From Squalus acanthias (Eukaryota): a DNA stretch of 64,000 bases. Shown here piece by piece: positions 2,775 to 58,890 of this stretch; position 1 is the stretch's first letter, and each line of letters starts with the position of its first letter. Where the stretch lies: NCBI GenBank assembly GCA_030390025.1, contig CM059432.1, positions 2,170,001-2,234,000 of the forward strand. Reading direction: 5' to 3'. Both the position numbers and the translations under genes were made by a program. Below the pieces are notes generated by a model that was given only the letters and a program-made list of their open reading frames with translations, made no database searches and was not told where the DNA came from.

Positions 2775-3765
2775 TGAGGTATTACATTTTGGTAGGATGC
2801 GGAGATGCCGGTGTTGGACTGGAGTGGACAAAAATGAGAAGTCGCACAACACCAGATTATAGTCCAACAGATTTATTTAAAATTACAAGCTTTCGGAGCT
2901 ATCGCCCCTTCCTCAGGTAAAGTTACGTAACTTTACCTGAGGGAGGGGCGATAGCTCCGAAAGCTTGTAATTTTAAATAAATCTGTTGGACTATAACCTG
3001 GTGTTGTGCGACTTCTCATTTTGGTAGGAAGAATAGGGAGGTCACTTATCACTTGGAGGATGCGAGTCTAGATGGGGTAGAGGAACAAAGGGATCTCGGA
3101 GTACAAATACACAATAATCACTAAAAGTTGCGACACAGGTTAGCAAGGCCATAAAAAAAAAGCAAACCAAGCACTAGGGTTTATTTCTAAAGGTATAGAA
3201 TTGAAAAGTAGGGAAGTTATGCTAAACCTGTATCAAACCACACTTAAGAGTGCTGTGTGCAGTTCTGGTCGCCATATTATAAAAAGGATATAGAGGCACT
3301 GGAAAAGGTGCAGAGAAGGTTTACAAGGATGATACCAGAAATGCGAGGGTATACATATCAGGAAAGGATGAACAGGCTGGGTCTCTTTTCTCTTGTAAAA
3401 TTATGAAAGGTTTTGAGAGAGTGGATACAGAGAGAATGTTTCCACTTGTGGGGAAGAGCATAACTAGAGGCCATCAATATAAGATAGTCACCAAGAAATC
3501 CAATAGGGAATTCAGAAGAAACTTCTTTACCCAGAGAGTGGTGAGAATGTGGAACTCGCTACCACAGGGAGTGGTTGAGGCAAATAGTATGGACGCATTT
3601 AAGGGGAGGCTGGACAAGTATATGAGGGAGAAGGGAATCGAGGGTTATGCTGATAGATTTAGATGAGGAAAGACGGGAGGAGGTTCGAGTGGAGCATAAA
3701 CGCCGGCATGGACTGGTTGGGCCGAATGGCCTGTTTCCGTGCCGTATATCCGATGTAATCCTATG
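2775..3765 (+). mobile_element. CR1-type LINE 3' fragment inserted in a SINE tail
   Basis: ORF 3403-3666 (RRNFFTQRVVRMWNSLP); TAAATG duplicated at 2769-2774 and 3766-3771. Confidence 0.9.
2798..3016. mobile_element. Penelope-like pLTR fold-back insertion (family 1)
   Basis: 96-bp arms 2831-2926 / 2927-3022 with 2 mismatches; TSD CATTTTGGTAGGA at 2785-2797 and 3017-3029; hammerhead-like motif. Confidence 0.75.
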
Positions 3766-4313
3766 TAAATGCAAGTCTTCCTTTATTTCCAAACTGCCCA
3801 AGACAGACGTGGGACCACTGCTTTCCTGACTTCATAAAAATTCACACCAATACGCAAGATTAGGGGTAACGGATAATCCAGGTTTCACTCCAAATGCTTT
3901 CCTAATTAAAACATTTCAACATGCTCATTAGCACAGCAGCAATACAAATAGTTGGGACCTGCTTTCATTTATCCAACAATATTAGCTCCAGGGTGAGTCA
4001 CCTGGGTTATTCTGCATGGGTAGTTTCCCCACATGGAGGCAATGTACCTCATCCATTGTAAGGTGCGGACTAACATGGCAAGTGGACAAGAGCCACCTCC
4101 CAGGAGAGACAAGGATAGAAAGATTAGGAGAGCAAGTCAGCTTAGCTCACTCATGCGAGTCTCTTAATAGCAGGTTACAAAGCAGACCGCCTCTCAATAT
4201 CCTCAGTTAGGTTGTTAACAGTGGAAGGATGAGGGAGGGGCAAAAAAAAGAGGGGGGGGGGAAAGTGCCAATATCCCCAATCTTGGCACTTGTGATTTGA
4301 CTGTAGGGTCTTA

Positions 4314-4848
4314 CAACATAAGAATTAGGAGCAGGAGTCGGCCATTCGGCCCCTCAAGCCTGCTCCGCCATTCAATAAGATCATGGCTGATCTTCGACCT
4401 CAACTCCACTTTCCTGCCCGATCCCCACAGAGTCAAAAAATCTATCGATCTCAGCCCTGAATATACTCAACGATTCAGCAACCACAGCCCTCGGGGGCAG
4501 AGAATTCCAAAGATTCACAACCCTCTGAGTGAAGAAATTCCTCCTCATCTCGGTCTTAAATGGCCGACCCCTTATCCTGAGACTATGCCTCCTAGTTCTA
4601 GACTCTCCAACCAGGGGAAACAACCTCTCAGCATCTACTCTGTCAATCCCTCTCAGAATCTTCTATGTTTCAATGAGATCACCTCTCATTCTTCTAAACT
4701 CCAGAGAGTATAGGCATCATCTACTCAAGCTCTCCTCATAGGACAACCCTCTCATCCCAGGGATCAATCTAGTGAACCTTCGTTGCTCTAAGGCAAGTAT
4801 GTCCTTCCTCCGATAAGGAGACCAAAACTGTGCCCAGTACTCCTGGTG
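4314..4848 (-). mobile_element. CR1-type LINE 3' fragment
   Basis: MFPLVGESRTRRHSLRIRGRPFKTEMRRNFFTQRVVNLWNSLP. Confidence 0.9.
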
Positions 4849-4974
4849 CGAGAGGTAACCTATTTTTTCTGCCACTGTGAATCCCACTCTCAAAGCATTT
4901 CCCAACTTTTGGCCACATCATTCAGCATCAATGGGAAAAAAAACCATAACTAAAATATAGTTTACTTCTCAATT

Positions 4975-5378
4975 ACTCCTTAGAGCAGAGAAGGTCAAGG
5001 GGAAATTTAATAGAGGTGTGCAAAATCATGAAGCGATTTGATGGAGTAAATAAGGAGAAACTGTTTCCACTGGCAGGAGGGTCGGTAACCAGAGGACACA
5101 GATTGAAAGTAATTGGCAAAAAAAAACAGAGGGGGAGATGAGGAGAATTTTTTTTATGCAGCGAGTTGTTGTGATCTGGAATGCGCTGCCTGAAAGGGCG
5201 GTGGAAGCAGATTCAATAGTAACTTTCAAAGGGGAATTGGATAAATATTTGAAAAGGAGAAATTTGCAGGGCTGTGGGGAAAGGGCAGGGGGGAGTGGGA
5301 CTAATTGGAGAGCTCTTTCAAAGAGCCGGCACAGGCACGATGGGCCGAATGGCCTCCTCCTGCGCTGTGAGATTCTAT
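4975..5378 (+). mobile_element. CR1-type LINE 3' fragment
   Basis: RRIFFMQRVVVIWNALPERAVEADS; CR1 3' UTR. Confidence 0.88.
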
Positions 5379-5594
5379 TTAAAGTCACTTGATTCAAATG
5401 ATCTGATTATTTGATTTTCCCATGTTATTTGCGTGGCTACTTCTAACTAATGGATAATTTGAATGGTCTGTATCATCAAGAACAAAAGAAACAACTCGGA
5501 GTTGTGAAGAGTAGGCTCGACGCGCACAAGGTAGTCGTCATTCAAACCCACCCCGATAAAACCAAGAATGGTTTCTTTCATAGAGTCAGCTCAG

Positions 5595-5735
5595 CGGCCT
5601 GGGCCCTAAGCTCTGGAATTCCCTCCCTAAACCTCTCTGCCTCTTCTCCTTATGTGTCTCGGTGTTTGATAATCGCTCCCGTGAAGCGCCTTGGGATGTT
5701 CTATCATGTTAAAGGCGCTGTATACATCATCGTCA
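5595..5735 (+). mobile_element. L2 3' remnant with internal deletion
   Basis: GGGCCCTAAGCTCTGGAATTCCCTCCC..GTGAAGCGCCTTGGG..AAAGGCGCT. Confidence 0.75.
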
Positions 5736-5737
5736 AG

Positions 5738-6628
5738 TTACATCGAGTCTACAGCACAGAAACAGGCCATTCGGCCCAACTGGTCCGTGCCGGTGTTTCT
5801 GCTCCACATGAGCAGGAGTCCCACCCCTCTCCATCTCACCCCATCAGCATATCCTTCTATTCCTTTCTCCCTCATGTGTTTATCCAGCTTCCCCTTAAAT
5901 GCATCGATACTATTCACTTCAACCACTCCCTGTGGTAGCGAGTTCCACATTCTCACCACTCTCTGGGTAAAGAAGTTTCTTCTGAATTCCCTATTGGATT
6001 TATTAGTGACTATCGTATATTTATGACCTCTAGTTTTGGATTGCCCCACAAGTGGAAACGTTTTAAGAACATAAGAATTAGGAGCAGGAGTCGGCCATAC
6101 GGCCCCTCGAGCCCGCTCCACCATTCAATAAGATCATCTTCGACCTCAACTCCACTTTCCTGCACTATCCCCATATCCCTTGATTCCCCTAGAGTCCAAA
6201 AATCTATCGATCTCAGCCTTGAATATACTCAACGACTGAGAATCTCCCCTATACTATTCGCCTCAACCACTCCCTGTAGTAGCGAGTTCCACATTCTCAC
6301 CTCTCTCTGGGTAAAGAAGTTTCTCCTGAATTCCCCATTGGATTTATCAGTGACTGTCTTATATTGATGGGCCTCTAGCTTTGGTCTTCCCCACAAATGG
6401 AAACATTTTCTCTACCGATACATTTTTGGGCACGAAGGGAATCAAGGGATATGGGGATAGGGCGGGAAAGTGGAGTTGAGGTCGAAGTTCAGCCGTGTGG
6501 ATGGGCAATAAATGCTGGCCTTGCCAGCGACGCCCACATCCCATAAACAAACAAAAAATGATCTTATTAAATGGCGGAGCAGGCTCGAGGGGCCGAATAG
6601 CCGACTCCTGCTCCTAATTCTTATGTTC
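5738..6628. mobile_element. Mosaic of CR1 3' ends (two subfamilies, both strands) plus a short LINE tail at 6498-6557
   Basis: Alternating segments match other CR1 copies; GGGCAATAAATGCTGGCCTTGCCAGCGACGCCCACATCCC interrupts a CR1 UTR. Confidence 0.8.
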
Positions 6629-6794: not shown

Positions 6795-6922
6795 AGACAG
6801 ATACAACCAGACAGATACAACCAGACAGATACAACCAGACAGATACAACCAGACAGATACAACCAGACAGATACAACCAGACAGATACAACCAGACAGAT
6901 ACAACCAGACAGATACAACCAG
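6795..6922 (+). repeat. Minisatellite (AGACAGATACAACC) x9
   Basis: Perfect 14-bp tandem units. Confidence 0.97.
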
Positions 6923-6925
6923 CCC

Positions 6926-7400
6926 AATACAAAAGCAAAATACTGCAGAGGCTGGAAAACTGAAATACAAACAGAAAATGCTGGAGACACTCAGCAGGTC
7001 AGGCAGCATCGTGGAGAGAGAAACAGAGTTAACGTTTCTGGTCGGTGACCCTTCGTCAGAACTGGAAAAAGTTGAAGATGGAACAGGTTTTTAAGCAAGT
7101 GTAGGGGCAGGGAAAGGGGGGGGAGGGGAGGAAAGAACAAAAAGGAAGGTCTGTGATAGGGTGGAGGGCAGGAGAGATTAAATGACAAAAGGGATGATGG
7201 TGCAATGGGCAAAGGAGATGGTAATGGGACAAGTTAAGAAACAAAAGATGGGTCAATGGGAATAGCACAATCAGCACCTGCTGTCCGAAAAAATGGGGGC
7301 AGAGGTTATGATGTGAAATTGTTGAACTCAATGTTGAGTCCAGAAGGTTGTAAAGTGCCTAATTGAAAGATGAGGTGCCATTCCTCGAGCTTACGTCGAG
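6926..7400 (-). mobile_element. Penelope-like element 3' end (family 2): endonuclease C-terminus and pLTR
   Basis: Minus frame 7398-7306 reads RRKLEEWHLIFQLGTLQPSGLNIEFNNFTS*, resembling the PLE GIY-YIG C-terminal motif, then a pyrimidine-rich UTR and hammerhead motif. Confidence 0.8.
7027..7063 (-). ncRNA. Minimal hammerhead ribozyme motif
   Basis: AGUU-CUGACGA-A-GGGUC acc GACCA-GAAA-CG-UU-AACU. Confidence 0.6.
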
Positions 7401-7642
7401 AACCAACCGTTTGGCTCTTAGATGTTACGTCCTCTGCTTGACTTGTTGCCTCCATTCTGTTCCAAGACATCATGTGTGAGCCCACTCTGCCTTATCAATG
7501 GCTATGACCTTTAGGCTGCCTTATCTCACCTTACAGATCTTGGTCTGTTGGGGGGTGGGTGGGAACCTGCTGTTATTGAGAGTTCTGTGCAGTTCATCAC
7601 TGCTAAAGACAAATGAAGTTGTTTTTTTAAATGGGCTCTTTG

Positions 7643-8770: not shown

Positions 8771-8803
<33 letters not shown>

Positions 8804-10532: not shown

Positions 10533-10536
10533 AGTA

Positions 10537-12813: not shown

Positions 12814-13283
12814 AGCCAGTGGCTCAGTGGGCAGCACTCTCGCCTCTGAGGCAGAAGGTTGTTGGTTCAAGCCCCACTCCAGAGACTTGAGCACATAAAT
12901 CTAGGCTGACACTCCCAGAGCAGTGCTGAGGGAGTGCCGCACTGTCGGAGGTGCCGTCTTTCAGATGAGACGTTAAACCGAAGCCCCGTCTGGTCTCTCA
13001 GGGGGACGTAAAAGATCCCACGGCCACTATTTCGAAGAAGAGCAGGGGAGTTATCCCCGGTGTCCTGGCCAATATTTATCCCTCAACCAACATCACTAAA
13101 AACAGATCATCTGGTCATTATCACCTTGCTGTTTGTGGGAGCTTGCTGTGCGCAAACTGGCTGCCGCGTTTCCTGCATTACAGCAGTGACTACACTTCAA
13201 AAATACTTCATTGGCTGTAAAGCGTTTTTGGACATCCGGTGGTCGTGAAAGGCGCTATAGAAATGCAAGTTCTTTCTTCTTCT
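12814..13283 (+). mobile_element. Full-length DeuSINE
   Basis: A/B boxes, core and tail. Confidence 0.9.
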
Positions 13284-23828: not shown

Positions 23829-24553
23829 GCCTTCTGGACTTGATGTATCTTTTGTCGAACGTTGAAAAATACAGCAAGTGGCGCAGCAACTGAGGGCAGG
23901 CATCGTAGGGCCCACCTCAAGCCTTCCGTTGCCTGGCAACAGGTCAGCTTCCCACTGACTGGAGTGTGTTGCCTGGGGAGATTGGGGGGGGGATGGGACG
24001 GGAGGAGAGGGGCAGAAAGAGAGAAGGGATAGAGAGGTGTAATGCCCATAGAACAAAGAGCTGTGAAAGAGTTAACAATTAGAATCTCGGCTCTTTCATC
24101 GGTGCGCTCTCTGTAAACAAATAAAAGAAATTCCCATTGGTGGGTTGGCTTGCATATTGTATTATTGTCAGAGAGCAGAGTTTCAGAAGATATTGTGGTC
24201 TGGAGAATCTTACCACCCACTCAGACTCTAGATTCACATGTCAGGAGATAATAAAAAAGTTATTTATCATTATTTGATAGTAACACAATGATACAACATA
24301 TTAAAAATAGTTTTGGGGAACTTCACAGAAACTCACAGCACAGTAGGAGGCCGTTCGGCCCATCGTGCCTGTGCCGCTCTTTGGAAGAGCTCTCCAATTA
24401 GCCCCACTCCCCCACTCTTTCCCCACAGCCCTGCAAATTTTTCCCGTCGAGTATTTATCCAATTCCCTTCTTCAAAGCTCACAGAAATCAGAACCACATC
24501 AAATAAGTATTTCCTCAAAAATAATCATTTTGTGAGGCAGGGGAAATAATAAG

Positions 24554-25600
24554 ACCCACTCCAGGGACTTGAGCACTAAAATCTAGGCTGACACTCCCAG
24601 TGTGGTGCTGAGGGAGCGTTGCACTGTCGGAGGGGCAGTACTGAGGGAGCGCCGCACTGTCAGAGGGGCAGTACTGAGGGAGTGCTGCACTGTCGGAGGG
24701 GCAGTACTGAGGGAGCACCGCACTGTGGGAGGGGCAGTACTGAGGGAGCGCCGCACTGTCGGAGGGGCAGTACTGAGGGAGCACCGCACTGTGGGAGGGG
24801 CAGTACTGAGGGAGTGCTGCACTGTCGGAGGGGCAGTACTGAGGGAACGCCGCACTGTCGGAGGGGCAGTACTGAGGGAGTGCTGCACTGTCGGAGGGGC
24901 AGTACTGAGGGAGCGCCGCACTGTCGGAGGGGCAGTACTGAGGGAGCGCAGCACTGTCGGAGGGGTCAGTACTGAGGGAGCGCCGCACTGTCGGAGGGGT
25001 CAGTACTGAGGGAGTGCTGCACTGTCGGAGGGGTCAGTACTGAGGGAGTGCTGCACTGTCGGAGGGGCAGTACTGAGGGAGTGCTGCACTGTCGGAGGGG
25101 CCGTCTTTCGGATGAGACATTAAACCGAGGCCTCATCTGCCCTCTCAGGTGGACGTAAAAGATCTCACAGCACTATTTCGAGGAAGAGCAGGGGGGTTAT
25201 CCCCGGTGTCCTGGAGCCAATATTTATCCCTCAATCAGCATTAGTTTCTCTAGTACTTTTTCTCTACTTATATTAATTACGTTAAGTTCCTCAACCTCAT
25301 TAGACCCTTGGTTCCCCACCATTTTTGGTATGCTTTTTGTGTCTTCTACTGTGAAGACAGATACAAACAGATATTGGAAGAAGAACAGTCCTGACCAATA
25401 TTTATTCCTTAACAAACGTCAGTAAAAAAAATTGATTATCTGGTCATCGCTGTTTGTGGGAGCTTGCTGTGCGCAACTCTGGCTGCCGTGTTTCCTACAT
25501 TACAACAGTGACTACACTTCAAAAAGTACTTCATTGGCCGTAAAGCGCTTTGGGACGTCCAGAGGACGTGAAAGGCGCTATATAAATGTAAGTCTTTCTT
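24554..25600 (+). mobile_element. DeuSINE with 33-bp VNTR and an embedded CR1 fragment
   Basis: SINE sequence flanks the array on both sides; CR1 piece at 25240-25375 (minus). Confidence 0.85.
24603..25100 (+). repeat. 33-bp minisatellite, about 15 units
   Basis: Unit CAGTACTGAGGGAGCGCCGCACTGTCGGAGGGG. Confidence 0.95.
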
Positions 25601-30945: not shown

Positions 30946-31116
30946 CACGTGACTCATCTCAAGCTCCGTGGTTGTTGAGCAATGGCCCACAATGTTACCA
31001 AGACTAGAGATGGGCCGGGCAAGATTCAGCGACAGTTCCTGCTTCCGAATTGCAATCCAGTGACTCGACTGAAAATGTCCATACGTAGATGCCGGGCAAA
31101 GATAGGATTGGACCAA

Positions 31117-31329
31117 AAACAGAAAATGCTGAAAATACTCAGCAGGTCAGGTAGCATCTGTGGAGAGAGAGAAACAGAGTTAACGTTTCAGGTCGATGAC
31201 CCTTCGTCAGAACTGAAACGTTAACTCTGTTTCTCTCTCTCCACAAATGCTGCCTGACCTGCTGAGTATTTCCAGCATCTTCTGTTTTTATTTCAGATTT
31301 CCAGCATCCGCAGTATTTTGCTTTTGTAT
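31117..31329. mobile_element. Penelope-like inverted pLTR pair (family 2)
   Basis: Arms of about 75 bp; TSD TAGGATTGGACCAA at 31103-31116 and 31330-31343. Confidence 0.78.
31178..31214 (-). ncRNA. Minimal hammerhead ribozyme motif
   Basis: AGUU-CUGACGA-A-GGGUC auc GACCU-GAAA-CG-UU-AACU. Confidence 0.68.
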
Positions 31330-31490
31330 TAGGATTGGACCAACCTCGGCTCTGATTATCCCCACAGCTGAACAGCCTACTATCTAGGCCCAAGCGAGAA
31401 AAATAGACACTTGGGTGAGGTACCAGAAGGTTGTAGGTGCCCTTGGAGCCTGACTGAAGTAGGAGACACTACCTTCCAGTGAAGATTAAA

Positions 31491-33189: not shown

Positions 33190-35327
33190 CTTGCATTTCT
33201 ACAGCACCTTTCACGACCTCAGGACGTCCCAAAGCGCTTTACAGCCAATGAAGCACTTTTTGGAGTGTGGTCCCTGTTGTAATGTTGGAAACGCGGCAGC
33301 CAAGTTGCGCACAGCAAGCTCCCACAAACAGTAATGTGATAATGGCCAGATCATCTGTTTTTTTTAGTGCTGTTGGTTGAGGGATTAATATTGGCCCCAG
33401 GACACCAGGGAGAACTCCCCCTGCTCTTCTTCCCATATCTGTTTGTATTTGTCTTCACAGTAGAAGACACAAAAAGCATACCAAAAATGGTGGGGAACCG
33501 AGGGTCTAATGAGGGTGAGGAACTTAACGTAATTAATATAAGTAGAGAAAAAGTACTAGAGAAACTAATGAGACTAAAAGCCGACAAATCCCCAGGACCT
33601 GACGGCCTACATCCTAGGGTTCTAAAAGAGGTGGCTGAAGAGATAGTGGATGCACTGGTTTTGATCTTCCAAAATTCCCTAGATTCTAGAACGGTCCCCA
33701 GGGATTGGAAGGTCGCAAATGTAACACCGCTATTCAAGAAAGGAGGGAGAGAGAAAACAGGGAACTACAGGCCAGTTAGCCTGACATCAGTCATCAGGAA
33801 AATGCTGGAATCCATTGTTGAGGAAATGGTATCAGGGCACTTAGAAAATCATAACATGATTAGGCAGAGTCAACATCGTTTTATGAAAGGGAAATCGTGT
33901 TTGACAAATTTATTAGCGTTTTTTGAGGCTGTAACTTGCAGGGTAGATAAAGGGGAACCAGTGGATGTAGTATATTTAGATTTCCAAAAGGCATTCGATA
34001 AAGTGCCACATAAAAAGTTATTACACAAGATAAGGGCTCATGGGGTTGACGGTAATATAGTAGCATGGATAGAGGATTGGTTAACGGACAGAAAACAGAG
34101 AGTAGGGATAAACGGGTCTTTTTCGGGTTGGCAGGCTTTAACTGGTGGGGTGCCGCAAGGATCAGTGCTGGGGCCTCAGCTATTTACAATCTATATTAAT
34201 GACCCAGATAAAGGGACCGAGTGTAATGTATCCAAGTTTGCTGACGATACAAAGCTAGGTGGGACAGTAAGCTGTGAGGAGAACACAAAGAATCAGCAAA
34301 GGGATATAGATAGACTTAGTGAGTGAGTAGATAGGTGGCAGATGGAGTATAATGTAGGGAAATGTGAGGTTATTCACTTTGGTAGGAAGAATAGAAAAAC
34401 AGAATATTTTTTAAATGGTGAGAAACTTTCAAATGTTGGTGTTCAGAGAGATTTGGGTGTCCTCGTGCAAGAAACACAGAAAGCTAGCATGCAGATACAG
34501 CAAGCAATAAGGAAGGCAAATGGCATGTTGGCCTTTATTGCAAGGGGGTTGGAGTATAAGAGTAAGGAAGTCTTGCTACATTGTACAGGGCCTTGGTGAG
34601 ACCACACCTGGAGTACTGTGCACAGTTTTGGTCTCCTTATCTAAGGAAGGATATACTTGCCTTGGAGGCGGTGCAACGAAGGTTCACTAGATTGATTCCT
34701 GGGATGAGAGGGCTGTCCTATGATGAGAGATTGAGTAGAATGGGCCTATACTCTCTGGAGTTTAGAAGAATGAGAGGTGATCTCATTGAAACATACAAGA
34801 TTCTGAGGGGGATTGACAGGGTAGATGCTGAGAGGTTGTTTCCCCCTGGCTGGACTGTCTAGAACTAGGGGGCACAGTCTCAGGATAAGGGGTCGGCCAT
34901 TTAAGACTGAGATGAGGAGGAATTTCTTCACTCAGAGGGTTGTGAATCTTTGGAATTCTCTGCCCCAGAGTGCTGTGGATGCTGAGTCTTTGAGTATATT
35001 CAAGGCTGAGATCGATAGATTTTTGGACTCTAGGGGAATCAAGGGATATGGAGATCGGGCGGGAAAGTGGAGTTGAGGTCAAAGATCAGCCATGATCTTG
35101 TTAAATGGCGGAGCAGGCTCGAGGGGCCGTATGGCCGACTCCTGCTCCTAATTCTTATGTTCTTATAGTGGCCGTGGGATCTTTTCCACCCACCTGAGAG
35201 GGCAGACGGGGCCTCGCTTTAATTTCTCATCTGAAAGATGGCATCTCCGACAGTGCGGCGCTCCCTCAGTACTGCCCCTCCGACAGTGCAGCGCTCCCTC
35301 AGTCCTGCCCCTCCGACAGTGCAGCAC
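33190..35327 (-). mobile_element. DeuSINE split by a CR1 insertion (33190-33433 and 35164-35327), ending in the VNTR at the gap
   Basis: SINE breaks at CTGCTCTTCTTC and resumes at ATAGTGGCCGTGGGATC. Confidence 0.8.
33434..35165 (+). pseudogene. CR1 LINE ORF2 reverse transcriptase, 5'-truncated and disabled
   Basis: RT motifs KSPGPDG, NYRPVSLTS, YLDFQKAFDKVPH, GVPQGSVLGP, KFADDTKL; stop at 34324-34326; frameshifts near 34581 and 34845; intact 3' UTR. Confidence 0.95.
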
Positions 35328-35827
35328 NNNNNNNNNNNNNNNNNNNNNNNNNNNNNNNNNNNNNNNNNNNNNNNNNNNNNNNNNNNNNNNNNNNNNNNNN
35401 NNNNNNNNNNNNNNNNNNNNNNNNNNNNNNNNNNNNNNNNNNNNNNNNNNNNNNNNNNNNNNNNNNNNNNNNNNNNNNNNNNNNNNNNNNNNNNNNNNNN
35501 NNNNNNNNNNNNNNNNNNNNNNNNNNNNNNNNNNNNNNNNNNNNNNNNNNNNNNNNNNNNNNNNNNNNNNNNNNNNNNNNNNNNNNNNNNNNNNNNNNNN
35601 NNNNNNNNNNNNNNNNNNNNNNNNNNNNNNNNNNNNNNNNNNNNNNNNNNNNNNNNNNNNNNNNNNNNNNNNNNNNNNNNNNNNNNNNNNNNNNNNNNNN
35701 NNNNNNNNNNNNNNNNNNNNNNNNNNNNNNNNNNNNNNNNNNNNNNNNNNNNNNNNNNNNNNNNNNNNNNNNNNNNNNNNNNNNNNNNNNNNNNNNNNNN
35801 NNNNNNNNNNNNNNNNNNNNNNNNNNN
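35328..35827. other. Assembly gap (500 N)
   Basis: Run of N. Confidence 1.
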
Positions 35828-39710: not shown

Positions 39711-39850
39711 TGATGGAGCGAAAGGGAGGGCTTTCAGGGTCCATTATCTTTTACTTTCCAACCAACATCATGTGTTTTTAAATAATCCAGTGCAGTGGAA
39801 AACACCCCCCCCAGATTATGTCTGCATTGTGCCTGACCCAAAGATACAAA

Positions 39851-40062
39851 TGTGAGAAGTCGCACAACACCAGGTTATAGTCCAACAGCTTTATTTGAAA
39901 TCACAAGCTTTCGGAGCGCTGCTCCTTCGTCAGGTGAAGTCACCTGACGAAGGAGCAGCGCTCCGAAAGCTTGTGATTTCAAATAAAGCTGTTGGACTAT
40001 AACCTGGTTTTGTGCGACTTCTCACTTTTGTCCACCCCAGTCCAACACCGGCATCTCCACAT
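39851..40062. mobile_element. Penelope-like pLTR fold-back insertion (family 1)
   Basis: 86-bp arms 39852-39937 / 39940-40025 with 1 mismatch; TSD CAAAGATACAAA at 39839-39850 and 40063-40074. Confidence 0.78.
39941..39975 (+). ncRNA. Minimal hammerhead ribozyme motif (mirrored on the minus strand)
   Basis: CAC-CUGACGA-A-GGAGC agc GCUCC-GAAA-GC-UU-GUG. Confidence 0.68.
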
Positions 40063-41073
40063 CAAAGATACAAAGATACGGGGCATTGTTGGCAGTATAG
40101 ATGGAAGCATAAAATTATAAAGAGATATTAATAGATTAAGCGAATGGGCAAAACTGTGGCAAATGGATTTCAATGTAGGCAAATCTGAGGTCATCCATTT
40201 AGGAGCTAAAAAGGACAGAAGAGAGAAATGGTGAAAAGCTAGAAGCAGTGGAGGTCCAAAGAGACTTGGGCGGGTTCAGGTACATCGATCATTAAAATGT
40301 CATGGACAGGTACAAAAAATCAGAAAGGTTAATGGGATGCTGGCCTTTATATCGAGAGGACTAGAATACAGGGACCTGGGAGTTAATGTGCATAGGTCCC
40401 TGAAGGTAGCGGGACATATTGAGAGAGTGGTTAGCACAGCATATGGGATCTTGGGCTTCATAAATAGAGATATTGAGTACAAAAGTAGAGAAGTTATGCT
40501 GAACCTTTATAAAGCTCTGGTTAGGCCACAACTGGAGTATTGCGTCCAGTTCTGGTCACCACACTTTAGGAAGGATGTGAAGGCCCTCGAGAGGGTGCGG
40601 AGGAGATTTACCAGAATGGTTCCGGGGATGGGGGATCTTAGCTACAAGGACAGGGTGGAGAAGCTGGATTTGTTTTCATTAGAGCAAAGGAGGTTGAGGG
40701 GTGATTTGATAGAGGTGTACAAGATTATGATGGGTTTGGATAGGCTAGACGGGGAAAGGCTGTTCCCACTAGTTGATGGTACAAGGACTAGGGGACTCAG
40801 ATTTAAGGTATTGGGCAAGAGATACAGGGGGGATGTGAGGAAAACCTTTTTTACGCAGCGAGTGGTGAGGACCTGGAACTCGCTGCCGATGGAAGTGGTG
40901 GAAACGGAGACACTCAATGTTTTCAAGGGGCAACTGGATAGGCACTTGAGGGAAATAAACTTGCAGGGCTACGGGGATAGAGCGGGGGAATGGGACTGAC
41001 TGGATTGCTCTACAGAGAGCCGGCACGGACTCGATGGGCCGAATGGCCTCCTTCTGTGCCGTTATGACTCTAT
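40063..41073 (+). mobile_element. Composite CR1 (older 5' piece joined near 40370 to a younger 3' piece)
   Basis: ORF 40337-40999 is the CR1 ORF2 C-terminus; the ..FISRGLEY / ..FINRDIEY segment occurs twice. Confidence 0.88.
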
Positions 41074-43666: not shown

Positions 43667-44184
43667 ATGTTTTTAACTGCACTGTCTACATAAAAGTTGT
43701 CGGTAAATCTTAATTTGGTTTGTTGAGAGCAAATGTCTGTGTTATTTTTATTGGGTGACCTCCTACGTTAGTGATGCACTGGCCCCGAATCTGCTGGAGG
43801 TGGGGTCTCAGGGTGAGGGTTGTGAGTTGCATCTGTTGTTTCACTCCTTCAGCCCCAATTAACTTTGCGCCAGAAATTGCTGGAAGTGCAAGCCGGTGAA
43901 TTCAACGGGGCATCTGGGACCTCGGTGAGCGACGGGACCAACAGTCTATCTCCTTAACCAATGAGATTGAAGGATTGAGAAAGAAACAGAGGAACGACGG
44001 AGAAGGAAATCGGGTGAATTCGAGTCAAATTAGATACAGAAAGAGAGGGAAAAAAATGTTGGATTAAGAGAGAAAAAGAGAGACAGAAAGGAAAAGTAAG
44101 ATCACTTTTTTTTAATAAATTAATTGAAAAAACCTCCAGGAACGATTTACTACCTCCAGGAATGAGACTCCAGAGTTTCAATTA

Positions 44185-44900
44185 ATAACATAAGAATTAG
44201 GAGCTGGAGGCGGCCATCCGGTCGCTCGAGCCTGCTCCGCCATTCAATAAGATCATGGCTGATCTTCGACCTCAACTCCACTTTGAATATTAAGGGAATC
44301 AAGGGATATGGGGATAGTGCAGGAAAGTTGAGATGAGGTAGAAGATCAGCCATGGTCTTACTGAATGGCGGAGCAGGCTCAAGTGGCCAAATGGCCGACT
44401 CCTGCTCCTATTTCTTATGTTCTTATGTTTCCCGCACTAGCCCCATATCCCTTGATTCCTTTAGTGTCCACAAATCTATCGATCTCTGTCTTGAATATAC
44501 TCAACGACTGAGCCTCCACAGCCCTCTGGAGAAGAGAATTCCAAAGATTCACCACCCTCTGAGTGAAGACATTTTTCCTCATCTCAGTCCTAAATGGCCG
44601 ACCCCTTATCCTGAGACTGTGACCCCTGGTTCTAGACTCCCCAGCCAGGGGAAACAACCTCCCTGCATCTACCCTGTCAAGCCCTGTAAGAATTTTGTAT
44701 GTTTCAATTAGATCAATTCTCATTCTTCTAAACTCCAGAGAATACAGGCCTAGTCTACTCAATCTCTCCTCATAGGACAACCCTCTCATCCCAGGAATCA
44801 ATCTAGTGAACCTTTGTTGCACCGCCTCAATGGCAAGGAGACCAAAACTGTACACAGTACTCCAGATGTGGTCTCACCAAAGCGCTAAATAATTGCAGCA
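44185..44900. mobile_element. CR1 cluster (two short tails and a minus-strand copy at 44430-44900)
   Basis: ORF 44415-44855. Confidence 0.85.
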
Positions 44901-45315
44901 AGGCACTTTACAGCCTTCCAGACTCAACATTGAGTTCAACAATTTCAGATCATAACCTCTGCCCTTATTTTTTCCACATGGCAGCTGTTGGTAATGATTC
45001 TGTTATTCCCATTCACACTTCATCTAGACCCATCTTTTGTTCCTTAACTTGTCCCATTACCATCTCCTTTTGCCTTGCACCATCATCCCTTTTGTCATTT
45101 AATCTCTCCTGCCTTCCACCCCATCACAGACCTTCCCTTTTGTTCTTTCCTCCCCTCCTCCCTTTCCCTGCCTTCGGTACTTGTTTAAAATCTGTCACAT
45201 CTCCAACTTTTTCCAGTTCTGACAAAGGGTCATTGACCTGAAACGTTGACTCTGTTTCTCTCTCCACAGACACTGCCTGACCTGCTGAGTGTTTCCAGCG
45301 TTTTCTGTTTTTATT
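44901..45315 (+). mobile_element. Penelope-like element 3' end (family 2)
   Basis: GTLQPSRLNIEFNNFRS*, then a UTR homologous to 6926-7400; degenerate hammerhead at 45215-45251. Confidence 0.78.
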
Positions 45316-45929
45316 ACACCTCTTAATCTTCTATATTCCAGGGAATACCAGCCTAGTCTATGTAGTTTCTCCTCATTAAGCTGAGTGGCCTTGCGGAGTT
45401 AAAGCACTTCTGAAAATTAGCCGTTGTTGCCCTTTCTGGTGAAGTGAGCCGAACTTGCGTGTCCAGAATTCTCAGACTAGCTGTAATAATCTTGACAGAA
45501 GTCTCTCAAAGAGCCGGCACGGGCACGATGGGCCGAACGGCCCTCTTCTGCGTTGTAAGGTTGATTTGGAACTGACTATCGGTCGCTGCGTGTAACGGGC
45601 GGCCGATCCGATACCACCCGTGTGGCGTCACTGCCCAAGGCTGATTTCTAGCCCTATGATTCGAAGCATGAAAGGAGTTGTGAAGCATTTCGCTTATGAA
45701 TCCAAAGATGGGGACCAGTTTTTTTGTCGTCCCCCCCCCGTCCCATTTGTACTCTGCGTAAATGTGTCACTGGGGAGGAGACTCCAGTACTCGGAGAACC
45801 AATGCTGTCCAAATGGAAAATGTAGCTATCAGGGGTCAGGTTTTCCAATCTAATGTTTTTTTTAAAAAAGAAAACAATGTCCAGTGGTGAAGTCAATCCT
45901 TTCATTACATTATTCACATTTCTCTCCAC

Positions 45930-51122: not shown

Positions 51123-51184
51123 TACCGGGCGACAGGTCTCCCAGACAAAACCTCTTGTTCTGTTCATGCGCCTTAAAAGGCTGT

Positions 51185-51348
51185 GGCCTAGAAATTGATC
51201 TCGGCCGGTGGAGCAACGCGGGCGGTCTGGGACCGGCCGCCTGTTATCGACTGACTGCAGTGGAACTGAACATCGGGCGGTGCGTATAACGGGCGGGCGA
51301 TCCCACACCGCCTGTTTTGCCTCACCGGCCGAGACTGATTTCTAGCCC
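51185..51348. mobile_element. Palindromic Harbinger-like MITE
   Basis: GGCCTAGAAAT..TCTCGGCCGGTG / CACCGGCCGAGA..ATTTCTAGCCC; half copy at 45567-45654. Confidence 0.6.
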
Positions 51349-51446
51349 TCAATGCGCCCAGAAATTTGAAAATGGCAATTTGTGTTTACGGAACAAAGCG
51401 TCCCATTTTTAATCGGCAGAAATTGGGGCTGAAAGGTACATTTTTA

Positions 51447-52823: not shown

Positions 52824-53042
52824 ACCGGCCATCCCAAAGCGCTTTACAGCCAATGAAGTACGTTTTGAAGTGTGGTCACTGTTGTAATGTAGAAATGCGA
52901 CAGCCAATTTGAACACAGCAAGATCCCACAAACATCAATGTGATAATGACCAGATCATCTGCTTTTTAAAAAAAAGAGATGTCAGTTGAGGGATAAATAT
53001 TGGCCAGGACACCGGGGATAACTCCCCTGCTCTTCTTCATAA

Positions 53043-53132
53043 CTTCACCTGAAGAAGGAGCAGCGCTCCGAAAGCTTGTGATTTCAAATAAAACTGTTGG
53101 ACTATAACCTAGGTGTTGTGCGACTTCTCACA
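53043..53132 (+). mobile_element. Penelope-like single pLTR mini-insertion (family 1)
   Basis: TSD CTTCTTCATAA at 53032-53042 and 53133-53143; CAC-CUGAAGA-A-GGAGC agc GCUCC-GAAA-GC-UU-GUG. Confidence 0.75.
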
Positions 53133-53227
53133 CTTCTTCATAATAGAAGAGCGAGATCTTATCGTCCACCTGAGAGGCCAGATGGGGCCTCGATTTAACA
53201 TAGCACCCGAAAGGCGACACCAATTTG

Positions 53228-54674
53228 TGGCAGCCAATTTGCACACAGCAAGATCCCACAAACAGCAATGTGATAATAACCAGATAATCTGTTTTTTTTT
53301 CATGATGTTGATTGAGGGATAAATATTGGCCCAGAACACCAGGGAGAACTCCCCTGCTCTTCTTTGAAATAGTGGCCGTGGGATCTTTCACATCCACTTG
53401 AGAGAGCAGATGGGGCTTCGGTTTAATGTCTTAGCTGAAAGACAGCAGCTCCGACATTGCAGCGCTCCCTCAGTACTGCCCCTCCGACAGTGCGGCACTC
53501 CGACAGTGCGGCGCTCCCTCAGTACTGCCCCTCAGTACTGACCCTCCGACAGTGCGGCGCTCCCTCAGTACTGACCCTCCGACAGTGCAGCGCTCCCTCA
53601 GTACTGCCCCTCCGACAGTGCAGCACTCCCTCAGCACTGCCCCTCCTACAGTGCGGTGCTCCCTCAGTACTGCCCCTCCGACAGTGCGGTGCTCCCTCAG
53701 TACTGCCCCTCCGACAGTGCAGCACTCCCTCAGTACTGCCCCTCCGACAGTGCAGCACTCCCTCAGCACTGCCCCTCCTACAGTGCGGCGCTCCCTCAGT
53801 ACTGACCCTCCGACAGTGCAGCGCTCCCTCAGTACTGCCCCTGCATCAGTGCAGCGCTCCCTCAGTACTGCCCCTCCGACAGTGCAGCACTCCCTCAGTA
53901 CTGCCCCTCCGACAGTGCAGCACTCCCTCAGTACTGCCCCTCTGACAGTGCGGCGCGCCCTCAGTACTGCCCCTCCGACAGTGCGGCCCTCCCTCAGTGC
54001 TGCCCCTCCGACAGTGCGGCGCTCCCTCAGTACTGCCCCTCCGACAATGCGGCACTCCCTCAGTACTGCCCCTCCGACAGTGCAGCACTCCCTCAGTACT
54101 GCCCCTCTGACAGTGCGGCGCGCCCTCAGTACTGCCCCTCCGACAGTGCGGCCCTCCCTCAGTGCTGCCCCTCCGACAGTGCGGCGCTCCCTCAGTACTG
54201 CCCCTCCGACAATGCGGCACTCCCTCAGTACCGCCCCTCCGACAGTGCGGCGCTCCCTCAGTACCGCCCCTCCGACAGTGCGGCGCTCCCTCAGTACTGC
54301 CCCTCCGACAGTGCAGCACTCCCTCAGTACTGCCCCTCTGACAGTGCGGCGCGCCCTCAGTACTGCCCCTCCGACAGTGCGGCCTCCCTCAGTGCTGCCC
54401 CTCCGACAGTGCGGCGCTCCCTCAGTACTGCCCCTCCGACAATGCAGGCACTCCCTCAGTACTGCCCCTCCGACAGTGCAGCACTCCCTCAGTACTGCCC
54501 CTCTGACAGTGCGGCGCGCCCTCAGTACTGCCCCTCCGACAGTGCGGCCCTCCCTCAGTACTGCACTGGGAGTGTCAGCCTAGATTTTTGTGCTCAAGTC
54601 TCTGGAGTGGGACTCAAACGCACAACCTTCTGACTCAGAGGCGAGTGTGCTACCCACTGAGCCACGGCTGACAT
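53228..54674 (-). mobile_element. DeuSINE with large internal VNTR
   Basis: Intact head at 54563-54674 and core at 53228-53451 flank the array. Confidence 0.9.
53452..54562 (-). repeat. 33-bp minisatellite, about 33 units, with higher-order structure
   Basis: Same unit as 24603; 11-aa periodicity in the ORF track. Confidence 0.95.
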
Positions 54675-55219: not shown

Positions 55220-55396
55220 ATGATCTGCTCATTAGCAGATTGCGGTTTGTGGGAGCTTGCTGTGCGCAAATTGGCTGCCGCGTTTCCTACATTACAACAG
55301 TGACCGCACTTCAAAAAAAAAAGTACTTCATTGGCTGTGAAACGCTTTGGGACGTCCTGAGGTTGTGAAAGGCGCTATAGAAATGCAAGTTCTTTC
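55220..55396 (+). mobile_element. DeuSINE 3' fragment
   Basis: Tail match. Confidence 0.85.
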
Positions 55397-55464
55397 ATTA
55401 CAAAGGACTTTCTGAACGAAAGAACAAAGGTCGCCACCAGCTGTTCACGAAGACAACCCGCCGC

Positions 55465-55614
55465 CAATGTTCCCTCCAAGCCGCGCGGCCGCGTGCGCCG
55501 TCTGCAGCCCGGGGGGGGGGGGGGGGGCGGCTTTTTAAACGTGAAGGTTCGCGCATACGCGAAACTTTGGGAGGGCCGTGTGGCCCGTTAAGGGGGGCCG
55601 CACCCCCAACATTG
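55465..55614. mobile_element. hAT-like MITE (family of 941)
   Basis: Ends CAATGTT / AACATTG and shared internal motifs; TSD not evident. Confidence 0.6.
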
Positions 55615-56299
55615 CCCCTTCGCCACCATCTCAAGGGGCAACTGGGGACGGGCAATAAATGTCGGCCTTGCCAGCGACGCCCACATCCCGAGAATGAATA
55701 GATTTCTCCATTGTGTATTTTCTACTTTAAGGCACTACTGCCAGAGCAACAATTTGCCGTCAGTTCGACGCCTGAAACACGCTCTCTCGCTCATTGTAAT
55801 GGGAGACACGAAGAACGTGTCTCACATGAACGACACATTCAGCCATGATCTCACTGAATGGCGGAGCAGGCTCGAGGGGCCAAATGGCCTACTGCTGCTC
55901 CTAATCCTTATGTTATCATTCGACTGCCCAGGTGGTGGTGGTGACTGGTGAGCGTGGGGCTTTACGACATTGAACACAAGGAGTTAACACAACACAAAGG
56001 CGCGAGATTAACACTGGGCTGTTAGATGGACAGCACCGCGTTTAGCAACAACCCAGTGACAGGAGGAGTCTGATGTATTTGTGAACACATTCCAACTCAT
56101 CTCCTACACACACAAAGCTTCTTCTTCAAGGTTCTTTTCACTCTCGTGAGAGAAAAGGGTGCAGCAATCCAACTTAAGTTTCCAGAATATTAAGAAATCA
56201 CCAGTTTCAGATCGAGTCTGTGCTTCCAATAACCTAGTGAGCGCCAAGTGAAAGACCCGAGAACCAGCAGCAATTAGGCTGAAGAGGAAGGGAAGGAGA

Positions 56300-56830
56300 A
56301 TAGAATCATACAGCAGAAAGAGCTCTTCAATTAGTCCCACTCCCCCCCTGCTCTTTCCCCACAGCCCTGCAAATTTTTCCCCTTCCAGTATTTATCCAAT
56401 TCCCTTTTGAAAGTTACTATTGAATCTGCTTCCACCGCCCTTTCAGGCAGCGCGTTCCAGATCACAACAACTCGCTGCGTAAAAAAATGTTTCCTCATCT
56501 CCCCCTCTGGTTCTTCAGCCAATTAACGTATGTCTGTGTCCTCTGGTTACCGACCCTCCTGCCACTGGAAACGGTTTCTCCCTATCTACTCTTATCAAAA
56601 AAAAACGCTCAGCAATTTGAACACCTCTTATTAAATCTTCCCTTAACCTTCTCTGCTCGAAGGAGAACAGTCCCAGCTTCTCCAGTCTCTCCACATAACT
56701 GAAATCCCTCATCCCTGGTACCATTCTAGTAAATCTCTTCTGCACCCTCTTAAAGAGCGGTGCCCAGAATTGGACACAATACTCCAGCTGAGGCCTAACT
56801 GGGTGATTTATAAAAGGTTTAGCATAACGT
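56300..56830 (-). mobile_element. CR1-type LINE 3' fragment
   Basis: ORFs 56331 and 56515. Confidence 0.88.
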
Positions 56831-56930
56831 TTGGAAGGTGAACATTCCCAGCTTCCCTAGTCTCTCCGCAGACTAAAGAATTTCTGTCCTCTGTCCTCCC
56901 CCTCCCCCTTCCCCGTGACTCCGATACATT

Positions 56931-57450
56931 AACATAAGAACATAAGAAATAGGATCAGGAGTCGGCCATTTGGCCCCTCGAGCCTGCTCGGCCATTCAAT
57001 AAGATCATGGCTGATCTTCGACCTCCACTTTCCCGCCCGATCCCCATATCCCTTGATTCCCTGAGAGTCCAAAAATCTATCGATCTCAGCCTTGAATATA
57101 CTCAAAGACTGAGCCTCCACAGCCCTCTGGGGCAGAGAATTCCAAAGATTCACAACCCTCTGAGTGAAGATATCCTCCCTCATCTCAGTCCTAAATGGCC
57201 GACCCCTTATCCTGAGACTATGCCCCCTAGTTCTAGACTCTCCAGCCAGGGGAAACAACCTCTCAGCATCTACCCTGTCAAGCCCTGTAAGAATTTTGTA
57301 TGTTTCAATGAGTTCATCTCTCATTCTTCTAAACCCCAGAGAGTACAGGCCCATTCTACTCAATCTCTCGTCACAGGACAAGCCTTTCATCCCAGGGATC
57401 AATCTAGTGAACCTTTGTTGCACCCCCTCTAAGGCATGTACGTCCTTAAC
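56931..57450 (-). mobile_element. CR1-type LINE 3' fragment
   Basis: Core of ORF 56929-57567. Confidence 0.9.
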
Positions 57451-57882
57451 TGGGAAACAGGCCCGAGACAACCTCCAACATTCCACAAGCGTAGATGGCA
57501 TCAGTAACACATTGCTGGCACCTTCCAGGCAAGTAGCTGTTGCCTTTTTTATCAAATCAATATGCACCGAGATTTGATTTTTTCTTAATTTGAACTGCCT
57601 AAAAGCAAAGACTAGTACAACTCAAGGGACTGCGATATTACGAGCAACTATTGTACTACTTGAATACAAAACAAAGTTGCACCATAAATTAATCCAGCAG
57701 GGACTACCATCTGAAGATTTTCAAACCCTTACAATCTGAATAGCTTTTGCAGTAAATCACAGCAATAGTAGCAGCAGATCTCATTTAACTAATCCTATTA
57801 ACTGTGGCATTTACTAGAATTTCAAACTTATTTTTTAAGATCGTTTTCGCAATTTTTTTAAAAAAAGGTACAACAATAAGTA

Positions 57883-58397
57883 ACAGGATCAGGAGTCGGC
57901 CATTCGGCCCCTCGAGCCTGCTCCGCCATTCAATAAGATCATGGCTGATCTTCTACCTCAACTCCACTTTCCCACCCCATCCCCATATCCCTTGATTCCC
58001 CTAGAGTCCAAAAATCTATCTATCTCAGCCTTGAATATACTCAAAGACTCAGCATCACAGCCCTCTGGGGCAGAGAATTCCAAAGATTCACCACCCTCTG
58101 AGTGAAGAAATTTCTCCTCATCTCAGTCCTAAATGGCCGACCCCTTATCTGAGACTGTGACCCCTGGTTCTAGACTCTCCAGCCAGGGGAAACATCCTCC
58201 CTGCATCTACCCTGTCAAGCCCTGTAAGAATTTTGTATGTTTCAATGAGATCACCTCTCATTCTTCTAAACTCTAGGGAACATAGGCCTAGTCTACTCAA
58301 TCTCTCCTCATAGGACAATCCCCTCATCCCAGGAATCAGTCTAGTGAACCTTTCACTCCCTTTAAGGCAAGTATATCCTTCCTTAGGTAAGGAGACC
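57883..58397 (-). mobile_element. CR1-type LINE 3' fragment
   Basis: ORF 58145-58411. Confidence 0.9.
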
Positions 58398-58559
58398 TCA
58401 ACCAGCATCACTAAAAAAACAGATTATCTGGTCATTATCATACTGCTGTATGTGAGCCTACCTACCTGACCCAGAAATGCCAATTTGTGGGGGAGGGAGA
58501 GAAACATACAATTAAACTTGTAAAACATGGTATAGAAATGGTAATGTAGAATATTTATT

Positions 58560-58890
58560 GGCCTGGGCCCTAAGCTCTGGAATTCCCTCCCTAAACCTCT
58601 CTACCTCTCTCTCCTTTAAGACGCTCCTTAAAACCTACCTCTTTGACCAAGCTTTCGGTCACCTGCCCTAATATCTCTTATGTGGCTCGGTGTCAAATTG
58701 TGTCTGATAATCGCTCCTGTGAAGCGCCCTGGGATGTTTTACTATGTTAAAGGCGCTATATAAATACAAGTTGTTGACGAAAGGTCATCGACCTGAAACG
58801 TTAACTCTGTTTCTCTCTCTTCACAGATGCTGCCTGATCTGCTGAGTATTTCCAGCATTTTCTGTTTTTATTACAAGTTGTTGTTGTTGT
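58560..58890 (+). mobile_element. L2 3' end
   Basis: Tail interrupted by a Penelope-like insert. Confidence 0.88.
58777..58871 (+). mobile_element. Penelope-like pLTR mini-insertion (family 2)
   Basis: TSD TACAAGTTGTTG at 58765-58776 and 58872-58883; starts inside the hammerhead core. Confidence 0.72.

What the first reader, a model, noticed from the sequence alone, without database searches (positions are those of the whole stretch)
2798..58871. Dispersed hammerhead-bounded Penelope-like mini-elements (two families, seven insertions)
Seen: all five short inserts (2798, 31117, 39851, 53043, 58777) have 11-14 bp TSDs, and their sense-strand 5' boundary or fold-back point lies within about 10 nt upstream of, or inside, a CUGANGA..GAAA motif. 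The two families differ in sequence but share architecture: short stem I, 5-bp stem II, and a palindrome (AAGCUU or AACGUU) in place of stem III. Established: Penelope-like elements carry minimal hammerheads, reported to cleave as dimers, and often form inverted pLTR structures. Inference: the folded ribozyme fixes where reverse transcription stops or switches template, giving a stereotyped 90-220 bp ribozyme-bearing unit that may move non-autonomously. Most inserts keep the core, so their boundary is not simply the predicted cleavage site. Best candidate system in the window.
Basis: partly seen in the sequence, partly recalled or inferred. Interest (0 to 1): 0.72.

Follow-up and report, generated by a model that had tools for sequence, protein, structure and literature searches.

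The report
Truncated Penelope ends with hammerhead motifs
These are short, likely dead tail-end copies of two Penelope-like jumping genes in what is likely a shark or ray genome; they carry a known kind of predicted mini-ribozyme and mostly begin at its upstream edge, which hints that the copied RNA starts there.

Summary
In detail: five 90-219 bp inserts with exact 11-14 bp TSDs and two longer copies; two families that share only a minimal hammerhead motif with covarying stems. They are best read as 5'-truncated pLTR ends of endonuclease-positive Penelope-like elements: a 3' tail on one arm only, head-to-head inversions, and in family B 300+ nt of upstream sequence ending in a GIY-YIG-like C-terminus. 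All this is described in print. Real and not found in my searches: 7 of 10 5' ends lie at -10 to +4 of the core, none at the cut site. Most likely the template has a discrete 5' end at the ribozyme's edge (inferred, untested). No genome was held, so genome-wide breakpoints were not counted. This scan noted the same pattern in other shark- or fish-like genomes. New members of a known kind; interest modest.

The parts
2798..3016 (.). Family A (subfamily A2) head-to-head insert, 219 bp: left arm 2798-2926 (-) with tail, C3 at 2916; right arm 2927-3016 (+) without tail, C3 at 2937, A9>G; both arms start at -10
   Evidence: TSD 2785-2797 / 3017-3029, 13 nt
39851..40062 (.). Family A (A1) head-to-head insert, 212 bp: left arm 39851-39943 (-) without tail, starts at -10 (or -6), C3 at 39933; right arm 39940-40062 (+) with tail, starts at -4, C3 at 39944; 4-nt overlap
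   Evidence: TSD 39839-39850 / 40063-40074, 12 nt
53043..53132 (+). Family A (A1) single 90-bp insert without tail, starts at -6 or -7, C3 at 53049, intact motif
   Evidence: TSD 53032-53042 / 53133-53143, 11 nt
31117..31329 (.). Family B head-to-head insert, 213 bp: left arm 31117-31215 (-) without tail, intact motif, C3 at 31210, starts at -2 to -5; right arm 31213-31329 (+) with tail, starts at +20 to +23; 3-nt microhomology
   Evidence: TSD 31103-31116 / 31330-31343, 14 nt
58777..58871 (+). Family B single 95-bp insert without tail, starts inside the core (+2 to +4), C3 lost
   Evidence: TSD 58765-58776 / 58872-58883, 12 nt
6927..7401 (-). Family B long 5'-truncated copy with tail: last 31 codons of an ORF (7309-7401), about 250 nt pyrimidine-rich 3' region, hammerhead motif (C3 at 7059), body, tail; no exact TSD
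   Evidence: the peptide matches the C-terminus of a gene model with weak GIY-YIG and RVT_1 hits
44901..45316 (+). Family B long 5'-truncated copy without tail: ORF end, 3' region, decayed motif (C3 at 45219, G8>A); 84% identical to the 6927 copy over 422 columns; no exact TSD

Best explanation
The seven inserts are likely 5'-truncated copies of the terminal (pLTR) module of two endonuclease-positive Penelope-like retrotransposon families, likely made by target-primed reverse transcription that would run to a discrete template end at the upstream edge of the predicted hammerhead. Steps: (1) the element's endonuclease nicks both target strands 11-14 nt apart (TSDs shown; the enzyme inferred); (2) RT starts at one of two sites about 35-45 nt apart, giving arms with or without the tail (pattern shown here; two start sites shown in vitro for the anole element); (3) one priming gives a solo copy, priming at both nicks gives two cDNAs that join by 0-4 nt of microhomology into a head-to-head insert (inferred); (4) the cDNAs are short because the protein likely starts on the copy of the module nearest the RNA's 5' end and runs off it, the RNA beginning, or being trimmed back, at the edge of stem I (inferred, untested). 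Ribozyme cleavage would not set the boundary. Odds: Penelope-like ends about 0.9; two priming events about 0.65; discrete template end about 0.45.
For: TSDs and seven copies. Tail on exactly one arm in 3 of 3 inversions, tail-less ends at one site per family; in contigs of four public runs the largest listed loose-end group with unrelated flanks lies at that tail-less site, 6969 (554, 389, 44, 549 contigs). Long family B copies end an ORF whose last 29 residues are 69% identical to the C-terminus of a cartilaginous-fish-type gene model with weak GIY-YIG and RT hits. At 31117 the left arm has the core but no tail and the right arm the tail but no core; at 39851 the further-reaching arm also lacks the tail, so neither arm is a copy of the other. 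Frangieh 2024 (PMC11167929): both strands nicked and extended, two RT start sites bounding the tail, predicted dimer, ribozyme mutants do not change insertion. 5' ends: 7 of 10 at -10 to +4, 0 of 10 at the cut site; five of seven insertions are 90-99 nt from the tail-less end, P at most 4e-4 under exponential truncation with a 30-50 nt detection floor and 8e-3 with a 70 nt floor. In family A, -9 is the edge of a predicted extended stem I with an A-U/G-C swap between subfamilies. Two listed contig joints in family B fall at -3 (7062).
Against: No transcript start was mapped and no genome was held, so the template end is inferred. Ends are spread over 14 nt and one arm starts at +20; among the six loose-end groups listed per run none lies at 7055-7069 (2196 rows not shown), so the 5' boundary is not one nucleotide. 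The ribozyme edge and a length of 90-99 nt coincide in both families, so a length ruler cannot be told apart. Family A has no long copy and no protein link here; its native upstream sequence is inferred from three arms. The Pfam hits of the related gene models are below cut-off (GIY-YIG 14.4 against 22.6 bits). In D. virilis the start site lies about 120 nt upstream of helix I, beyond an intron, which does not fit a start at the stem. Several priming junctions show 1-6 nt of microhomology, unlike the non-homologous starts reported in vitro.
Confidence: 0.5

Rival explanations
1. Self-priming: once stem I has been copied, the nascent cDNA (or an antisense RNA, as Arkhipova et al. 2013 proposed) snaps back on itself, which ends copying at the 5' edge of the fold; the hairpin is extended and the endonuclease resolves its two ends, leaving the tail on one arm.
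For: A mirror hairpin in the cDNA can form only after the whole stem is copied, which puts ends at the 5' edge. Junctions at 2798 and 39851 are palindromic. PMC3846280 reads junction palindromes as self-priming and PMC8557442 ascribes the tail to endonuclease resolution (passages). An off-target hairpin trimmed at both ends could give tail and core on different arms.
Against: Snap-back through stem I predicts a second arm starting at +30; 0 of 3 inversions show it. A target-primed single cDNA cannot give the 31117 and 39851 patterns. In vitro both start sites are target-primed RT starts.
Confidence: 0.2
2. One reading: the folded ribozyme (perhaps as a dimer, bound by protein) blocks RT or makes it switch template, and the 90-220 bp unit moves on as a non-autonomous element.
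For: Clustering at the motif is real. Short family B copies are about 95% alike and share two variants that both long copies lack. Single contigs with high depth hold an inverted joint 7003/7062 (depth 508 in run X1) and a 99-nt head-to-tail joint 7062 to 6964 (605, 2 contigs, run X5), which may be amplified derivatives. Tandem retrozymes related to pLTRs are reported in one cartilaginous fish (bioRxiv 10.64898/2026.07.22.740005).
Against: Ends lie on the far side of the fold; five inserts, five different junctions; the two motifs of an inversion are on opposite strands and cannot form a cis dimer; the isolated motifs fold no better than shuffles (z from -1.2 to +0.4 in 6 of 6); ribozyme mutants did not alter insertion in vitro. 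The two-variant split rests on 3 arms against 2 copies.
Confidence: 0.12
3. The boundary is a splice junction: an intron in the pLTR ends at the start of stem I, as in D. virilis Penelope, and RT copying a spliced or partly spliced RNA leaves the genomic sequence there.
For: Family B has a pyrimidine run and CAG at -5 to -3; ends at -2 to -5 and contig joints at -3 fit it. PMC4209133 places the D. virilis intron end at the 5' end of helix I.
Against: No first exon is seen in any short copy; family A has no AG in -10 to -1; the whole family B region is pyrimidine-rich and has two more acceptor-like sites; long copies keep the region; no GT-AG joint among the 15 joints listed of 242.
Confidence: 0.1
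4. No link to the ribozyme: the enzyme tends to fall off after about 90-100 nt (a length ruler), or the clustering is a small-sample and detection effect.
For: Length and ribozyme edge coincide in both families; n is 7 insertions; with a 70-nt detection floor P rises to 8e-3; five short lengths within any 10 nt have P up to 6e-3.
Against: Tail-bearing arms, which start about 40 nt further 3', still end at the motif (2798 left at -10, 39851 right at -4, 31117 right at +20) rather than 40 nt earlier. No copies of 30-70 nt were found by permissive BLAST.
Confidence: 0.08

Closest known systems
5'-truncated and inverted insertion units of canonical EN+ Penelope-like elements (Penelope/Poseidon, Neptune; PMC8557442, PMC3846280)
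   Same: Heavy 5' truncation, head-to-head inverted copy, 30-40 bp tail on one end only, palindrome or short overlap at the inverted junction, TSDs (8-10 bp in the rotifer), hammerhead in the pLTR.
   Different: Here both arms are only 90-130 nt, TSDs are 11-14 bp, and 5' ends gather at the upstream edge of the hammerhead, which I did not find stated in the passages read.
Minimal hammerheads (min-HHR) of metazoan PLEs (Cervera and de la Pena 2014, PMC4209133)
   Same: CUGANGA and GAAA boxes, extra base between 9 and 10.1, 4-bp helix I, palindromic 15.2-16.2 in place of helix III; most genomic motifs are solo and ascribed to truncated PLEs; opposite-strand pairs 100-700 bp apart were noted.
   Different: Helix II is 5 bp; family B has G-U or A-U instead of G10.1-C11.1; the residue at the cut site is U in both families; activity untested.
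Poseidon of Anolis carolinensis, PAc (Frangieh 2024, PMC11167929)
   Same: Two RT start sites bounding the tail, hammerhead about 90-130 nt upstream of them, mild A+T lean of targets (41 of 62 TSD bases against 52% in the window).
   Different: No full ORF here; several priming junctions show microhomology; family and clade differ or are unknown.
Non-LTR retrozymes (bioRxiv 10.64898/2026.07.22.740005)
   Same: Short hammerhead-bearing units related to pLTRs, dispersed monomers, seen in a cartilaginous fish.
   Different: Defined by tandem units with at least two complete motifs; none in the window; the inserts here are solo or head-to-head.

Membership tests
EN+ Penelope-like element | ORF with telomerase-like RT and C-terminal GIY-YIG endonuclease | tested here: inconclusive
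   Family B: only the last 31 codons are in the window; 69% identity over 29 residues to a gene model with sub-threshold GIY-YIG (E 0.048) and RVT_1 (E 0.16) hits. Family A: no coding sequence in the window.
EN+ Penelope-like element | Optional 30-40 bp tail at one end | tested here: met
   4 of 10 arms carry a tail of about 35-45 nt; on exactly one arm in 3 of 3 inversions.
EN+ Penelope-like element | Inverted 5'-truncated copy head-to-head, with TSD | tested here: met
   3 of 7 insertions; TSD 12-14 nt.
EN+ Penelope-like element | Partial tandem (pLTR-ORF-pLTR) full-length unit | not testable with these tools
   No genome held; one head-to-tail joint in run contigs is not a full element.
EN+ Penelope-like element | Clade (Neptune or Penelope/Poseidon) by RT phylogeny | not testable with these tools
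   No RT sequence of these families obtained. A Neptune-like look of the family B ORF end is recalled, not tested.
Minimal type I hammerhead | Core boxes, helix I and II, palindromic helix III remnant | tested here: met
   5 descriptor hits against 0 in 200 resamples; 68 of 69 cells paired, 7 of 10 pairs with two-sided change, slid controls 14-44% paired. Only 7 distinct rows from 3 lineages, aligned on the motif I proposed, so this is few independent events.
Minimal type I hammerhead | G10.1-C11.1 pair | tested here: inconclusive
   Met in family A; family B has G-U or A-U, and 27-36% of contig depth reads the A variant opposite U (7051, 7039).
Minimal type I hammerhead | Self-cleavage as a dimer | not testable with these tools
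   Needs a bench assay; 1 of 9 Xenopus dimers cleaved in the preprint.
Non-LTR retrozyme | Tandem units with two or more complete motifs | tested here: not met
   No tandem unit in the window; one 99-nt tandem joint in contigs of two runs.
Non-autonomous master element (SINE-like) | Copies share fixed ends and private mutations | tested here: not met
   Five inserts, five structures; a two-variant split of short and long family B copies is too small to decide.

The most novel reading that the evidence does not exclude
The hammerhead of vertebrate Penelope-like elements is not there to cut but to mark the 5' end of a dedicated RNA of about 100-140 nt, made from an internal start or trimmed to the folded, protein-bound stem; a dimeric element protein copies two such RNAs from the two nicks of one target, and some products (such as the 99-nt tandem seen in contigs) amplify on their own as retrozyme precursors.
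Probability: 0.15. Interest if true: 0.62.

Novelty: new member of a known kind. Interest (0 to 1): 0.3.

Why it matters
The role of the hammerhead in endonuclease-positive Penelope-like elements is stated to be unclear (PMC8557442) and cleavage was dispensable in vitro. Abundant short copies record where cDNA synthesis starts and ends in vivo. If a genome-wide count confirms a peak of 5' ends at the edge of stem I and arm patterns that need two priming events, two open points of the insertion cycle become testable from sequence alone. The elements themselves are ordinary repeats of a known class.

Tried and rejected
No whole genome is held, so copies could not be collected. Rfam at E up to 10: 16 matches, none a hammerhead; the best are microRNA-type hairpin models on the inversions, all below gathering score. 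Pattern scans: 0 in viral contigs for each family; 1 in metagenome contigs, an unrelated tandem repeat. Protein word searches with the ORF-end stretch and with the open frame across motif and tail found nothing (0 of 5 and 0 of 16 candidates), so an ORF start inside the module (an ATG-led frame runs through the family B tail) is not shown. Run search: no RNA holder listed; all runs were contigs. Summed contig depth on the long copy is 0.43-0.48 of the body at 7130-7180 and 0.26-0.52 at 7317-7384 in the three DNA or unlabelled runs, which would fit a step at the motif, but the tool states that this is no copy number, and dips follow the reference's own indels: not used as evidence. The lower ratio of the guessed-RNA run X13 to X1 between about 7062 and 7330 could suggest an intron; contigs cannot show RNA level, so it is set aside. 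The large loose-end group at 7010 follows an indel of the reference and is treated as an artefact. Cleavage-defined 5' ends rejected: 0 of 10. Cis dimer inside an inversion rejected: motifs are on opposite strands. The Lunse et al. paper on dimer cleavage is not held; I saw it only as cited in PMC6765202. Supplements: the figures of PMC11167929 are pictures and those of the bioRxiv preprint are closed; Fig. S2 of the former shows genomic coverage around the motif and may bear on whether the 5' clustering is already visible in print.
Full report
Setting. The window is repeat-rich DNA with many LINE-like coding fragments and minisatellites and 500 N. The only relatives of the family B peptide among 1.84 billion representatives were five gene models named from whale shark, a stingray and a skate, so the source is likely a cartilaginous fish. 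No whole genome is held.

Observation. All five short inserts are present with exact TSDs of 13, 14, 12, 11 and 12 nt. With tandem repeats masked, 8 of 5000 random position pairs gave a match of 11 or more. Self-BLAST finds three family A insertions (2798, 39851, 53043) and four family B insertions (31117, 58777, and long copies at about 6927-7401 and 44901-45316), and no shorter fragments. Three inserts are head-to-head, so there are 10 arms. The long copies have no exact TSD.

The ribozyme motif. A minimal type I descriptor hits 5 places in the window and none in 200 resamples. The families share only a 10-nt core match, yet the proposed stems hold: 68 of 69 cells pair, 7 of 10 pairs change on both sides, and slid controls pair at 14-44%. 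This rests on 7 distinct rows from three lineages (A1, A2, B), so on few events. Between A1 and A2 stem I swaps C-G for U-A, and a predicted extension of stem I (2x2 loop, then 3 bp, reaching -9) swaps G-C for A-U; the A1 form of that extension rests on one junction-spanning arm. In contigs of four runs, position 10.1 of family B reads G or A (27-36% A) opposite U. The architecture matches the min-HHR of PMC4209133 (parts 1-2 of 4 read), which already says that most motifs are solo, probably truncated PLEs, and that opposite-strand pairs occur 100-700 bp apart. Folding energies of the isolated motifs are no better than shuffles. Four of nine core-bearing arms are damaged or weakened. Cleavage is untested.

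What the elements are. The long family B copies are 84% identical over 422 columns and begin in the last codons of an ORF. That peptide is 69% identical over 29 residues to the end of a gene model whose upstream part has weak GIY-YIG and RT matches, both under Pfam's cut-off. Arms end at one of two 3' sites about 35-45 nt apart; the tail is on exactly one arm in 3 of 3 inversions. Laying public contigs on the long copy gave 48,590, 32,441, 2,655 and 64,816 pieces in four runs, and a group of loose ends with unrelated flanks at the tail-less site 6969 in all four, so family B is very abundant and that 3' end is general. Truncation, inverted copy and one-sided 30-40 bp tail are the described signature of EN+ Penelope-like elements (passages of PMC8557442 and PMC3846280). 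Family A is placed there by architecture only.

The 5' ends. Relative to C3 (+1; cut site after +29 or +30): family A -10, -10, -10 (or -6), -4, -6/-7; family B -2 to -5, +20 to +23, +2 to +4, and about -318 and -342 for the long copies. Seven of 10 lie at -10 to +4, none at the cut site. Counting one value per insertion, five of seven are 90-99 nt from the tail-less end; under exponential truncation the chance of 5 or more in the 15-nt ribozyme window is at most 4e-4 with a detection floor of 30-50 nt and 8e-3 with 70 nt (one search gave the same picture with a slightly shifted window). Tail-bearing arms are about 40 nt longer yet also end at the motif, which argues against a plain length ruler. 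Two of the 15 listed contig joints (of 242) use position -3; others lie at +2 to +16; no loose-end group at the 5' edge is among the six listed per run. The boundary is thus a zone, not a base, and I could not count it genome-wide.

Mechanism. Frangieh 2024 (PMC11167929, parts 1-2 of 4 read) showed for the anole Poseidon that both target strands are nicked and extended, that RT starts at two sites bounding the tail, that the protein is a predicted dimer and that ribozyme mutants do not change insertion. In the window, the 31117 insert has core without tail on one arm and tail without core on the other; at 39851 the further-reaching arm also lacks the tail; 2798 is symmetric and uninformative. 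One target-primed cDNA folding back would put tail and furthest reach on the same arm, so two priming events joined by 0-4 nt of microhomology fit best (inference). Self-priming of an off-target hairpin with later trimming (PMC3846280) remains a rival. On why ends gather at the motif: a structure stops RT at its 3' foot (established behaviour, recalled), which would leave the core out; the ends lie at the far, 5' edge. A discrete template end there explains this most simply: an element RNA holds the start sites twice, and initiation on the 5'-proximal copy would run off after about 100 nt. Whether the end is a start site, a trimming stop or a splice junction is open. In D. virilis the intron ends at helix I and the start site is about 120 nt upstream (PMC2377424 part 1 of 4 and passages); family B has an acceptor-like CAG at -5 to -3, family A has none.

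Mini-element or not. The five inserts have five different junctions, so each was likely made anew. Against this: short family B copies share two variants absent from both long copies, and a few deep contigs hold an inverted joint and a 99-nt tandem joint at -3, which may be amplified derivatives of the retrozyme kind (preprint 10.64898/2026.07.22.740005, parts 1-3 of 5 read).

Novelty. Class, motif, tail and inversion are known. In eight full-text searches and the texts read I found no statement that 5' ends gather at the upstream edge of the hammerhead, nor a twin-priming reading of PLE inversions; the library lacks most subscription papers, including the dimer-cleavage paper (seen only as cited in PMC6765202, passages), and some supplements were not readable. 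Earlier notes of this scan report the same pattern in other shark- or fish-like genomes; they are unchecked, and I had put 40% on a template end before seeing them. Verdict: real, new members of a known kind, with one testable mechanistic detail; interest 0.30.

Noticed in passing
window 39851 (left arm end) and 53132: Two independent tail-less family A1 ends carry the same extra A at the priming junction where the tail-bearing arm has T; a non-templated first base or a subfamily variant.
   Followed up: no
window 2917-2926 and 39934-39943 against the 10 nt after the cut site: In family A the 10 nt before the core and the 10 nt after the cut site are 8 of 10 identical, each a near-palindrome, and four positions change together between A1 and A2, so stem I could pair in more than one register or between molecules.
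   Followed up: partly
window 31247-31329 and 6926-7075(-): An ATG-led frame, just after a pyrimidine run and CAG, stays open through the family B tail, as expected if the ORF starts inside the module; no protein relative found.
   Followed up: partly
window 44183-44425: A 243-bp inverted pair (76%) made of the ends of the common LINE-like repeat family, another head-to-head structure unrelated to the hammerhead families.
   Followed up: no
window 51182-51351: A G+C- and CpG-rich 170-bp inverted pair (72%), possibly an old DNA-transposon-like or MITE-like element.
   Followed up: no
window 24539-25137, 35163-35330, 53397-54620: A 33-bp minisatellite occurs three times, grown out of a unit also found singly in dispersed repeats at 12917 and 61230; one array runs into the 500-N gap.
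   Followed up: no
window 6803-6925: A 13-bp tandem repeat abuts the tail end of the long family B copy; a possible decayed TSD (8 of 11 by eye) spans its two ends.
   Followed up: partly
P0004, P0005: The end of this element's ORF is fused into annotated host gene models of two rays (a VKOR-like protein and a neuromedin-U receptor), either annotation error or exonisation.
   Followed up: no
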